Below are positions 23,199 through 26,275 of a DNA stretch of 64,000 nt, piece by piece (within the stretch, counting starts at the first letter, position 1; the number at the start of each line of letters is the position of its first letter). This DNA is from Eledone cirrhosa. Lineage: Eukaryota. A program made the translations under genes and the position numbers. The stretch lies in the NCBI GenBank assembly GCA_964016885.1, contig OZ024743.1:87978001-88042000 (forward strand), in the 5' to 3' direction. The notes below the pieces were generated by a model. It worked only from the letters and a program-made list of their open reading frames with translations. It was not told where the DNA came from and did no database searches.

Positions 23199-23368
23199 GT
23201 GTCTGTGTGTGTGTACATATATACTAACGGTAAACATACTGACTGATCAGGATTACGTATGTAACCAACCAATCAATAAATGATGATGCAATTCTGATTT
23301 GTCAGTCAGTGACGGAGTATATGTAGAATATGGAAACTTTTTAACATCTACTCCGAAGATCGCATTAT

Positions 23369-23436
<68 letters not shown>

Positions 23437-23561
23437 TGTGTGTGTGTTGTGTGTGTGTGTACCACCCCCACTCTCAAGCGTGAACCTAATACCTAACACC
23501 TTTCGTAACTACTCCTTGTTGTTGTTATTTACTTTTTCTATATATATATATATATATATAT

Positions 23562-23726
23562 GTAGGAGTAAGTAAGACCCCGACGGCTGAGCTCAAGCCG
23601 TTTCGACGGCTAATTCTGTACTCAGCCGTCGGGGTCTTACTTACTCCTATTACCCACTCTACTACCCTAAGTATTGAGTACTTTGGTGCGTTATGGTCCA
23701 CCTGGTTCCTTACCACTTTTCCTTCG

Positions 23727-23728
<2 letters not shown>
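23562..23728 (+). mobile_element. Family C fold-back element in (TA)n, left arm only
   Basis: Hairpin taggagtaagtaagaccccgacggctgag../..ctcagccgtcggggtcttacttactccta plus tail; absent from mirror site. Confidence 0.85.
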
Positions 23729-23790
<62 letters not shown>

Positions 23791-23796
<6 letters not shown>

Positions 23797-23922
23797 ATGC
23801 CCTAAGGACAGACACTGGTCTGTTTGAGATGCAGGACATGGCAGCGATAATGAGGGGCAGAGACCGCTGGAGAGAACTCGTCCATGGATCTCGGGAATTT
23901 TACCCGCCTTAGATAGATAGTT

Positions 23923-23925
<3 letters not shown>
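23791..23925 (+). mobile_element. Short 3' fragment of the 12060-13119 RTE family with (TAGA)n tail, in (TA)n
   Basis: [25 protein letters not shown] match; absent from mirror site. Confidence 0.9.
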
Positions 23926-23992
<67 letters not shown>

Positions 23993-24036
23993 GGAATTAC
24001 TTCATTTATATATATATATATATATATACAATTTAT

Positions 24037-24214
24037 AAAGGCTTCTACAGGGCTAGAACTGTTTAATTCGGGAGAAATCATCAGGGGCTTCCTCATGATT
24101 TCTCCCGAATGAAACAGTTCTAGTCCTGTAGAAGCCTTTCTATATTAAATATTTATACTCTACTTTGTATTGAGTACCTTACTTACTGTGGTTACCTCCG
24201 ATTGAACCCGGGAT
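24037..24214 (+). mobile_element. Family B fold-back element with hammerheads (mirrored at ~25640-25815)
   Basis: ggcttc-CTCATGA-tttctcccgaat-GAAA-cag..ctg-TA-gaagcc, inverted partner 24040-24090, tail ending aacccggga. Confidence 0.8.
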
Positions 24215-24272
24215 AAACTTATACCTTCCATATACTGTACCGATTGTGTTGTTATTTCTCTTTACCTTTTAC

Positions 24273-24311
<39 letters not shown>

Positions 24312-24312
<1 letters not shown>

Positions 24313-24676
24313 AAAAGGTAAACAGAAATAACAACACAATCAGTACAGTATATGGAAGGTATATACATGGTTAACGCTTGATATAGCAGGAAGAGGGTCT
24401 TGACGTTGTATCTGAACTTCCACCAGGAAATCTTTCCTATCACTGAAATTTTCTTTGCTTCTTATATATATATTTTCAATCACATATATTTTTATTGTTT
24501 GAGCCGAATTACTTGGTCGTTTCTTTGGCTGTGCGGATGTTTGTTTAACCATCGTCTCAGTGTGTTTGGCCTTTAACGTATGTTGTAGCTCTGGTTCATC
24601 TGAATCATTGAGCACTTGCCACACATCTCGGGAGGTTGTTTTCGTTAATTCCTAAGCCGAAATACGATTCTCGCTA

Positions 24677-24680
<4 letters not shown>
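24312..24680 (-). mobile_element. Family F element (mirrored at 25131-25500), 3' end abutting (CA)n
   Basis: aagac.ct.ttcct..tat.tcaagcgttaa..ctgtact..ttgttatttctgtttac shared with 36190-36311. Confidence 0.65.
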
Positions 24681-24731
<51 letters not shown>

Positions 24732-24933
24732 ATAAGAAACGGAGAATCAGTGTTGTGACGAATAGAATCTATTAGACATATTACAATCGTTTCTCTGGCG
24801 ACCAGCTCGAGGCACGATCGATGTAATGATCGAACACGACTATGAAATCACAAGGTCCTCAGATACATCTCGATTCTACGAAGCAGACTTTTTTTTATTT
24901 TTTTTTATTTGGAAACTCTGCTTCGTAGAATCG

Positions 24934-25030
24934 AGACGTATCTGAGGACCTTGTGATTTCATAGTCGGGTTCGATCATTACATCGATCGTGCCTCGAGCT
25001 GGTCGCCAGAGAAACGATTGTAATATGTCT
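24934..25030 (+). ncRNA. Type-I hammerhead family D with 62-nt stem II insert (mirror at 24774-24870 minus)
   Basis: agacgtat-CTGAGGA-[62 nt]-GAAA-cgattg-TA-atatgtct; 8-bp stem I. Confidence 0.75.
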
Positions 25031-25072
25031 AATAGATTCTATTCGTCACAACACTGATTCTCCGTTTCTTAT

Positions 25073-25133
<61 letters not shown>

Positions 25134-25497
25134 TAGCGAGAATCGTATTTCGGCTTAGGAATTAACGAAAAACAACTTCCAAGATGTGTGGCAAGCGCTC
25201 GATGATTCAGATGAACCAGAGCTACAACATACGTTAAAGGCCAAACACACTGAGACGATGGTTAAACAAACATCCGCACAGCCAAAGAAACGACCAAGTA
25301 ATTCGGGTCAAACAATAAAAATATATGTGATTGAAAATATATATATAAGAAGCAAAGAAAATTTCAGTGATAGGAAAGATTTCCTGGTGGAAGTTCAGAT
25401 ACAACGTCAAGACCCTCTTCCTGCTATATCAAGCGTTAACCATGTATATACCTTCCATATACTGTACTGATTGTGTTGTTATTTCTGTTTACCTTTT

Positions 25498-25582
<85 letters not shown>

Positions 25583-25962
25583 AAAGGTAAAGAGAAATAA
25601 CAACACAACCGGTACAGTATATGGAAGGTATAAGTTTATCCCGGGTTCAATCGGAGGTAACCACAGTAAGTAAGGTACTCAATACAAAGTAGAGTATAAA
25701 TATTTAATATAGAAAGGCTTCTACAGGACTAGAACTGTTTCATTCGGGAGAAATCACGAGGAAGCCCCTGATGATTTCTCCCGAATTAAACAGTTCTAGT
25801 CCTGTAGAAGCCTTTATAAATTTTATATATATATATATATATATATAAATGAAGTAATTCCGTATATATATATATATATATATATAGGAAAAGTAAATAA
25901 CAACAACAAGGAGTAGTTACGAAAGGTTTTAGGTATTAGGTTCACGCTTGAGAGTGGGGGTG

Positions 25963-26051
<89 letters not shown>

Positions 26052-26094
26052 GGATAATGTGTAGATGTTAAAAAGTTTCCATATTCTACATATA

Positions 26095-26275
26095 CATTAC
26101 ATCGATCGTGCCTCGAGCTGGTCGCCAGAGAAACGATTGTAATATGTCTAATAGATTCTATTCGTCACAACACTGATTCTCCGTCTCTTATGTGATATCA
26201 TACTCTGCTCTGTAAGAGCATCAAGTGGTCAAACGGCATACCGCATACGGACGTATTTAAGCATCCCACACCAAA
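26095..26275 (+). mobile_element. Third, 5'-truncated family D copy with tail, closing the palindrome
   Basis: Matches 24976-25078 then continues into tail catactctgctc..gagcatcaagtg..ggcataccgc, homologous to 26680-26758. Confidence 0.85.

What the first reader, a model, noticed from the sequence alone, without database searches (positions are those of the whole stretch)
23317..26275. 2.8-kb palindrome centred on and terminated by the same ribozyme element: apparent fold-back copying of flanking DNA
Seen: a family D inverted pair sits at the axis (24728-24887 / 24917-25078). To its right lies an inverted copy of about 1 kb of the upstream flank, including older elements and microsatellites, out to 26095. 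There the sequence switches directly into a third family D copy that carries the normal tail (26095-26275). The arms differ by scattered substitutions, a ~10-nt indel and microsatellite lengths, which argues against a simple read chimera. Inference: hairpin-primed synthesis during integration ran on through host DNA and then switched template back to the element. That would be an element-driven route to inverted segmental duplication.
Basis: partly seen in the sequence, partly recalled or inferred. Interest (0 to 1): 0.75.

Follow-up and report, generated by a model that had tools for sequence, protein, structure and literature searches.

The report
Penelope insertion that mirrored its flank
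A Penelope-type jumping gene sits here as a back-to-back pair with about 1 kb of neighbouring, mostly repetitive DNA copied backwards into it, likely during the insertion itself; two other sites in this genome have the same three-part build, so it is likely a rare but repeatable by-product of how these elements insert.

Summary
The palindrome is in the assembly: 23317-24887 mirrors 24917-26095 (17 substitutions in 909 nt, 6 at CpG). 'Family D' is the 3' end of a Penelope-like retroelement with a predicted long-helix hammerhead; the outer copy lacks the catalytic core and no junction lies at the predicted cut. The head-to-head pair is the family's known, common insertion form. All three copies share a 25-mer found only here in the 3-Gb genome and differ about as little as the host arms, so copying was roughly coeval with insertion. 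Of 104 other pairs, 2 have the same build (tail-less pair, inverted flank, element remainder), one rejoining 1 nt from the same spot; a third has a 45-nt flank copy. [quoted passage not shown] Reads gave no verdict. Analogues are published for LINE-1 and R2, and this scan noted similar cases before, here and in other genomes.

The parts
23317..23538 (+). Outer left arm (segment A), source of the distal part of the inverted copy; 23317 is the copy's end point
   Evidence: 23317-23351 and 23461-23536 match 26095-26061 and 25964-25889 at 100% and 98.7%
23539..23967 (.). Block present only in the left arm: two short repeat elements (23563-23728, 23790-23915) in a TA tract, likely inserted after the duplication
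   Evidence: alignment gap; nearest other genomic copies are 99% identical for both, i.e. no older than the 2% arm divergence
23968..24679 (+). Inner left arm (segment B): older repeat debris and microsatellites
   Evidence: matches to repeats in many other loci; longest stop-free frame in 23317-24730 is 144 codons
24680..24727 (.). (TA)n target tract, left side
   Evidence: sequence
24725..24891 (-). D(-): inverted, tail-less end of the Penelope-like element, D173 to about D7-11; predicted hammerhead at 24869-24775
24889..24906 (+). Spacer T8-A-T9 (an A-rich run on the minus strand), likely non-templated
   Evidence: A/T-rich spacers at many other pairs, a similar A-run/T/A-run at L187
24907..25079 (+). 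D(+): element end D1-D173, tail-less; predicted type I hammerhead 24935-25029, predicted cut after 25022
   Evidence: no Rfam ribozyme match
25080..26095 (-). Inverted copy of the left flank (TA, B', A')
26095..26275 (+). D3: element remainder D70 to the end of the ~80-nt tail; joined to the host copy with 1 nt of microhomology, at the base of a small hairpin loop inside the predicted helix II
   Evidence: the junction matched in full only here among 40 scored of 363 candidates
26276..26297 (.). (TA)n target tract, right side; no target-site duplication can be read in it
   Evidence: sequence

Best explanation
A head-to-head end pair of a Penelope-like retroelement carries a 1-kb inverted copy of its own left flank, likely made during one insertion into a TA tract when newly made DNA at the left end folded back on itself and was extended through the flank before being joined to the element's 3' part. 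Shown: the layout, the shared origin of the three copies, the recurrence at L068 and L187. Inferred steps: (1) the endonuclease opens the TA tract on both strands; (2) the left end primes inside the RNA at D173 (the usual inner end point, 94 of 262 arms) and the right end primes at the tail (112 of 262 arms end there); (3) copying stops at the element's preferred 5' end (D1-7) and adds an A-rich run; (4) the left-end strand folds back onto its own cDNA and is extended through TA and about 1 kb of exposed host strand, by the reverse transcriptase or a repair polymerase; (5) its end is joined to the right-hand cDNA at D70; (6) later, point mutations, microsatellite drift and two new insertions in the left arm accumulate. 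The spacer's orientation here requires either a later flip of the loop between the arms or that the first bases of D(+) came from the right-hand cDNA.
For: One source: the 25-mer with variants G129/C133/A142 occurs 3 times in 2,996 Mb, all three here; nearest other copy of D3+tail is 94% (40 scored of 2,208 candidates). Coeval: D3 vs D(-) 1/104, host arms 15/748 (Fisher p=0.71), against a median 5.6% between arms in 86 pairs (binomial p=0.017); all element comparisons that would include a delay give 4/167 vs 15/852 (p=0.53). Recurrence: L187 = D173-2 minus, A-rich spacer, D7-173 plus, about 120 nt inverted flank, D71-254 with 6 nt microhomology; its two axis arms share a 12-nt deletion that its third copy lacks, and there the full-length arm and the A-run face the way one-strand snap-back predicts. 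L068 = D173-1/D1-173, 26 nt adjacent plus 48 nt from about 0.5 kb away, then the tail from D176. Flank copies occur in 2 of 5 other tail-less pairs vs 1 of 95 remaining pairs (p=0.006). D68-72 is also a preferred 5' truncation site (5 of 35 internal starts, post-hoc window that includes L187). Precedent: LINE-1 insertions with inverted duplication at the reciprocal end (10.1101/2024.12.14.628481, passages); R2 snap-back on cDNA or nearby rDNA (PMC11204384, passages).
Against: D(+) holds D1-10, which D(-) lacks, and the A-run lies on the minus strand: the simple one-strand hairpin does not give this without an extra flip. D(+)1-69 plus D3 70-254 make up exactly one ordinary tailed arm, as a later template switch would leave it. 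The 3 differences between D(-) and D(+) all lie in D7-69, none in D70-173 (p=0.052; 0.12 without the junction base). At L187 and L068 the comparisons that would include a delay are more diverged than those that would not (about 4/88 vs 3/230, counted by eye; 11/161 vs 2/74); pooled over three loci odds ratio 2.1, p=0.077, partly explained by the element's higher CpG content (14% vs 6%). No read spans either junction.
Confidence: 0.55

Rival explanations
1. Two steps: an ordinary head-to-head insertion came first; soon after, a replication or repair fork stalled near D70 in the tailed arm, folded back onto the minus arm, copied it and 1 kb of flank, and resumed at D70 (short-range template switch at an existing 350-bp palindrome).
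For: Gives the identical final layout with no loss or gain at D70 and explains the spacer's orientation without a flip. Weak divergence excess in the direction of a delay at all three loci (pooled p=0.077; p=0.052 for D7-69 vs D70-173). Template switching at inverted repeats is a described class (PMC10766183, PMC5453318: search listing and abstract starts only).
Against: At this locus any delay must be short (1/104 for D3 vs D(-) against a 5.6% median between arms, p=0.017). Two independent loci rejoin at D70 and D71 (chance about 2%), a site where ordinary cDNA arms also start, which fits an element-set pause at least as well. L187 would need a switch at the axis plus loss of D7-70.
Confidence: 0.33
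2. The inverted segment was copied from the homologous chromosome, so the 2% arm difference and the missing 430-bp block are allelic differences and the event may be very recent.
For: CpG-rich substitutions and presence/absence of young elements are also what alleles show.
Against: Needs an inter-homolog switch in addition to the fold-back; nothing requires it; the same build at L068 and L187 has near-identical short host arms.
Confidence: 0.06
3. Assembly or library artefact: a fold-back chimera joined into the chromosome.
For: No spanning read or contig could be shown; tandem/inverted Penelope structures trouble assemblies (PMC8557442, passage).
Against: A one-molecule fold-back gives identical arms; these differ by 17 substitutions enriched at CpG on both arms, by indels and by two whole elements. 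A 1-nt-microhomology junction is not an assembler overlap. Two other loci share the build.
Confidence: 0.06

Closest known systems
Insertion unit of endonuclease-bearing Penelope-like elements: 5'-truncated copy, adjacent inverted pLTR, optional tail, TA targeting (PMC8557442 and PMC3846280, passages; PMC4209133, part 1 of 4)
   Same: Head-to-head pair, tail on one piece only, TA target, hammerhead motif on opposite strands; palindromes at the junction were already read as self-priming (PMC3846280).
   Different: Here the tailed arm is split by 1 kb of inverted adjacent host DNA; the tail is about 80 nt, not 30-40; helix II of the hammerhead is long and branched. The passages read describe captured host spacers and genes between pLTRs, not an inverted copy of the landing site's own flank.
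LINE-1 insertions with inverted duplication of genomic DNA on the reciprocal end (10.1101/2024.12.14.628481, Fig. 4 passages)
   Same: Insertion break, self-annealed end primes synthesis along the flank, then joining to the cDNA end with little or no homology.
   Different: There the hairpin forms on host microhomology; here the fold-back lies inside element cDNA, the element is Penelope-like, and the events are fixed in a reference assembly rather than somatic or induced.
R2 snap-back 5' junctions (PMC11204384, two passages)
   Same: cDNA 3' end primes further synthesis on the cDNA itself or on nearby target DNA before the junction forms.
   Different: R2 is a restriction-like-endonuclease element with one priming site; run-through of the whole cDNA into a kilobase of flank is not described in the passages read.
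Short-range template switching and ODIRA inverted triplications (PMC5453318, PMC10766183; listing and abstract starts only)
   Same: Inverted copy seeded by a short inverted repeat, with return to the original template.
   Different: No element machinery needed; would predict no tie in time to the insertion.

Membership tests
Endonuclease-bearing Penelope-like element (parent of D) | C-terminal GIY-YIG endonuclease upstream of the terminal repeat | tested here: met
   D-containing copies extend about 2.1 kb 5' into a frame ending in a C..LCL..E...N..SE...CRH-type motif (motif meaning recalled); L094 frame hits PF01541 at E=0.01, below the curated cut-off; the 91-aa end alone hits nothing
Endonuclease-bearing Penelope-like element (parent of D) | Telomerase-related reverse transcriptase in the same frame | tested here: inconclusive
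   Only decayed thumb-like stretches seen by eye in L102/L110 (motif recalled); no full RT fetched
Endonuclease-bearing Penelope-like element (parent of D) | Inverted 5'-truncated copy with tail on one end | tested here: met
   70 of 101 pairs have one tailed arm and one arm ending near D173
Endonuclease-bearing Penelope-like element (parent of D) | Direct pLTR at the 5' end of a full-length copy | not tested
   No full-length copy was fetched; 'pLTR' for D rests on position, motif and architecture
Neptune clade | Cys-rich linker before the endonuclease and microsatellite targeting | tested here: met
   CNC...CPL.G.C before the GIY-YIG motif in L094/L102/L104; TA tracts flank most arms; criteria from PMC8557442 passages
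Neptune clade | Placement in an RT phylogeny (vs Nematis, Hydra, Penelope/Poseidon) | not tested
   No reference RTs at hand
Naiad clade | N-terminal endonuclease, no canonical hammerhead | tested here: not met
   Endonuclease-like motif is at the C-terminal end of the frame
Type I hammerhead ribozyme | Core CUGANGA, GAAA, NUH triplet and three helices in order | tested here: met
   CUGAGGA, GAAAC, GUA with 7-bp helix I and 2-bp helix III in D(+) and D(-); 93.4% of cells paired in 40 selected copies, 0/500 shuffles as high, main compensatory change (U-A/G-C) is one subfamily event; U4 is C in 35 of 150 copies. Structure was drawn from these sequences, so the slide control is biased
Type I hammerhead ribozyme | Match to a curated model | tested here: not met
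   No Rfam hit at gathering score in the window; no ribozyme family among 126 matches at E<=10 in three loci
Type I hammerhead ribozyme | Self-cleavage | not testable with these tools
   Needs an in-vitro assay
Segmental duplication (>=1 kb, >=90% identity; definition recalled) | Size and identity | tested here: met
   About 1.18-kb arm at about 98% outside microsatellites, only just over the size line; the other three cases are 45-120 nt

The most novel reading that the evidence does not exclude
The Penelope reverse transcriptase itself snaps back at the RNA's 5' end, runs through its own cDNA into host DNA, and is rejoined at a structure-set pause in the hammerhead's helix II hairpin (D70-71), making tail-less head-to-head pairs a diagnostic, repeatable signature of element-made inverted duplications in about 2-3% of paired insertions, and a direct record of how Penelope-like elements build their inverted ends.
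Probability: 0.3. Interest if true: 0.62.

Novelty: new variant of a known kind. Interest (0 to 1): 0.4.

Why it matters
How Penelope-like elements form their tandem and inverted ends is stated as open in PMC8557442 (passage). A three-part product that recurs at three loci, two rejoining within 1 nt, constrains the model: both target ends carry element cDNA, and one end can fold back and copy its flank. As a source of genome change it looks minor: small copies of repeat-rich DNA in 3 of 104 sampled pairs (95% interval 0.6-8%), no gene seen in this copy.

Tried and rejected
Reads: runs X18-X20 (one sample) and X1 are held as short contigs, X21/X22 are RAD reads; neither lay showed a piece across the axis or the 26095 junction, and parts of the arms were skipped as repeats: no verdict either way. 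Rfam: no ribozyme model; miRNA hits are hairpin noise. HDV-like, twister and pistol folds were tried by eye from recalled motifs and did not fit. An R4/Dong LINE parent was considered because such frames lie upstream in L031-L033; rejected, since different LINE lineages abut the shared sequence in each locus and the shared sequence runs into the GIY-YIG-type end. Naiad rejected (domain order). The ribozyme cut as breakpoint rejected (D116 vs D1-11, D70, D173). Deletion of 23539-23967 from the right arm by TA slippage is possible but less likely than later insertion, given 99% relatives. Screen flagged 32 of 105 loci; 28 were set aside by eye as microsatellite or common-repeat matches (L156, L159, L190, L194 read in full); L079 has a 38-nt inverted piece from 1.1 kb away that may be a hairpin repeat and was not counted. 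The sample is the top 40 hits of each of six searches, not random; flanks were 1.5 kb (19 loci), 3 kb (57) or 4-5 kb (28); L146/L153/L154 look like duplicates. Only pairs were surveyed, so enrichment of elements among all large palindromes was not tested. Literature searches listed no paper on inverted flank copies at Penelope insertions; subscription papers and preprint supplements were not covered. One search used a guessed host group as a term and returned only PMC8557442.

Full report
Observation. Self-alignment confirms a palindrome whose left arm is 23317-24887 and right arm 24917-26095. Outside microsatellites the arms differ at 17 of 909 positions, 6 of them CpG transitions with derived states on both arms (P=0.0015), plus a 10-nt indel. 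It holds two short elements in a TA tract whose nearest genomic copies are 99% identical, so they likely landed in the left arm after the duplication. At 26095 the host copy switches, with one shared base, into a third element copy with the tail.

What D is. A search of the own genome (2,996 Mb) gave 2,390 candidates, 40 scored, at 94-96% outside this locus. Longer copies run about 2.1 kb 5' into the end of a decayed frame with a Cys-rich linker and a GIY-YIG-type domain (PF01541 E=0.01, below cut-off). This is the layout of endonuclease-bearing Penelope-like elements, Neptune-like by linker and TA targeting (PMC8557442 passages; no phylogeny made). Numbering D from 24907, arms mostly start at D1-7 and end at D173 (94 of 262) or D254 (112 of 262). 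D29-123 fits a type I hammerhead with a long branched helix II: 93.4% of cells paired in 40 selected copies, one subfamily-level compensatory pair. Rfam finds nothing and cleavage is untested. The predicted cut (after D116) is at none of the junctions, and D3 lacks the core.

The axis is ordinary. All 40 scored hits to the axis were head-to-head pairs. Of 101 pairs classified, 70 have one tailed arm and one arm ending near D173. Inverted terminal copies with an optional tail, and their reading as self-priming, are published (PMC3846280 passages; PMC8557442; PMC4209133 part 1 of 4; the retrozyme preprint 10.64898/2026.07.22.740005, part 1 of 5, added nothing on this).

The flank copy is rare but recurs. 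Among 104 other pairs (top hits, not a random sample; flanks 1.5-5 kb), L187 and L068 have the same build: both axis arms tail-less, an inverted flank copy, then the element's remainder with tail (from D71 and D176). L036 has two tailed arms and a 45-nt flank copy. That is 2 of 5 other tail-less pairs against 1 of 95 remaining pairs (p=0.006). At L187 the axis arms share a 12-nt deletion that the third copy lacks, so one axis arm was copied from the other; the A-rich spacer follows the longer arm, as snap-back from the left end predicts.

Timing. The three copies here share a 25-mer present three times in the genome, all at this locus; D3 with tail has no scored relative above 94%. D3 differs from D(-) at 1 of 104 sites, host arms at 15 of 748, the median pair at 5.6%. 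The duplication therefore came with, or soon after, the insertion, unless arms were homogenised; several other pairs also have near-identical arms with no close relative (L166, L158, L156), which fits either late private donors or homogenisation.

Results against the one-event reading. D(+) holds D1-10 that D(-) lacks, and the A-run lies on the minus strand, opposite to L187. D(+)1-69 and D3 70-254 add up to one ordinary tailed arm. The three D(-)/D(+) differences all lie before D70 (p=0.052). Pooled over three loci, comparisons that would include a delay are about twice as diverged (p=0.077; L187 counts by eye), though the element has 14% CpG bases against 6% in the flank. A later template switch at the young pair remains a serious rival. 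Reads gave no verdict.

Mechanism. I favour one insertion (0.55): both cut ends prime on the element RNA, the left-end product folds back and is extended through its own cDNA and 1 kb of flank, and is joined to the right-end cDNA at D70. That site borders a hairpin loop in the predicted helix II, L187 rejoins at D71 (chance about 2%), and 5 of 35 internal starts fall at D68-72 (post-hoc, includes L187). Which polymerase copies the flank cannot be read from sequence. Analogues: LINE-1 inverted duplications at the reciprocal end (10.1101/2024.12.14.628481 passages) and R2 snap-back junctions (PMC11204384 passages).

Novelty. Six paper searches listed nothing on inverted flank copies at Penelope insertions, within an open-licence library. 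Earlier unreviewed notes of this scan report similar single cases in this and other genomes; they are leads, not support. What this locus adds is the largest of three matching three-part products in one family, a shared rejoin point, and a timing test. Verdict: new variant of a known kind, interest 0.4.

Noticed in passing
L187:2768-3508 (G000:C3:104472450-104478550): Cleanest small replicate: tail-less pair sharing a 12-nt deletion, about 120 nt inverted flank, element remainder from D71 with 6-nt microhomology.
   Followed up: yes
L068:873-920 and 1393-1955: Tail-less pair, 26-nt adjacent inverted copy, a further 48 nt copied from about 0.5 kb away, then the tail: two jumps.
   Followed up: yes
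L036:4684-5362: Both arms tailed and about 45 nt of flank mirrored; arms differ at 2 of 242.
   Followed up: partly
window 24655-24680; L187:3254; L174:3312: The end of the same other repeat family lies next to the pair here, at L187 (25-nt stub) and at L174; probably shared TA targeting, but 2 of the 3 three-part loci have it.
   Followed up: partly
window 25035-25039, 26154-26158 (D129, D133): The locus-specific A129G and T133C changes together keep a small perfect inverted repeat 3' of the hammerhead.
   Followed up: no
L141-L166 (second subfamily): Hammerhead core U4 is C in 35 of 150 copies, together with a compensatory G-C pair in helix II; activity unknown.
   Followed up: partly
L166, L158, L156, L159: Pairs with near-identical arms (0-4 of 143) but no relative closer than 6-8% in the sample: late private donors or arm homogenisation.
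   Followed up: no
window 2176-2706, 18308-18746, 30814-31683, 31789-31981: Four more palindromes of 190-870 nt in or beside TA tracts, from other repeat families.
   Followed up: no
window 17667-17792; 26690-26760; 26976-27096: An internally deleted D copy, an older relative of the tail, and an older relative of D (about 72%).
   Followed up: no
L033:3622-7045 and L031:414-3033: Long open frames (1,141 and 873 codons) of LINEs with a restriction-like endonuclease end (R4/Dong-like, label recalled), unrelated to D.
   Followed up: no
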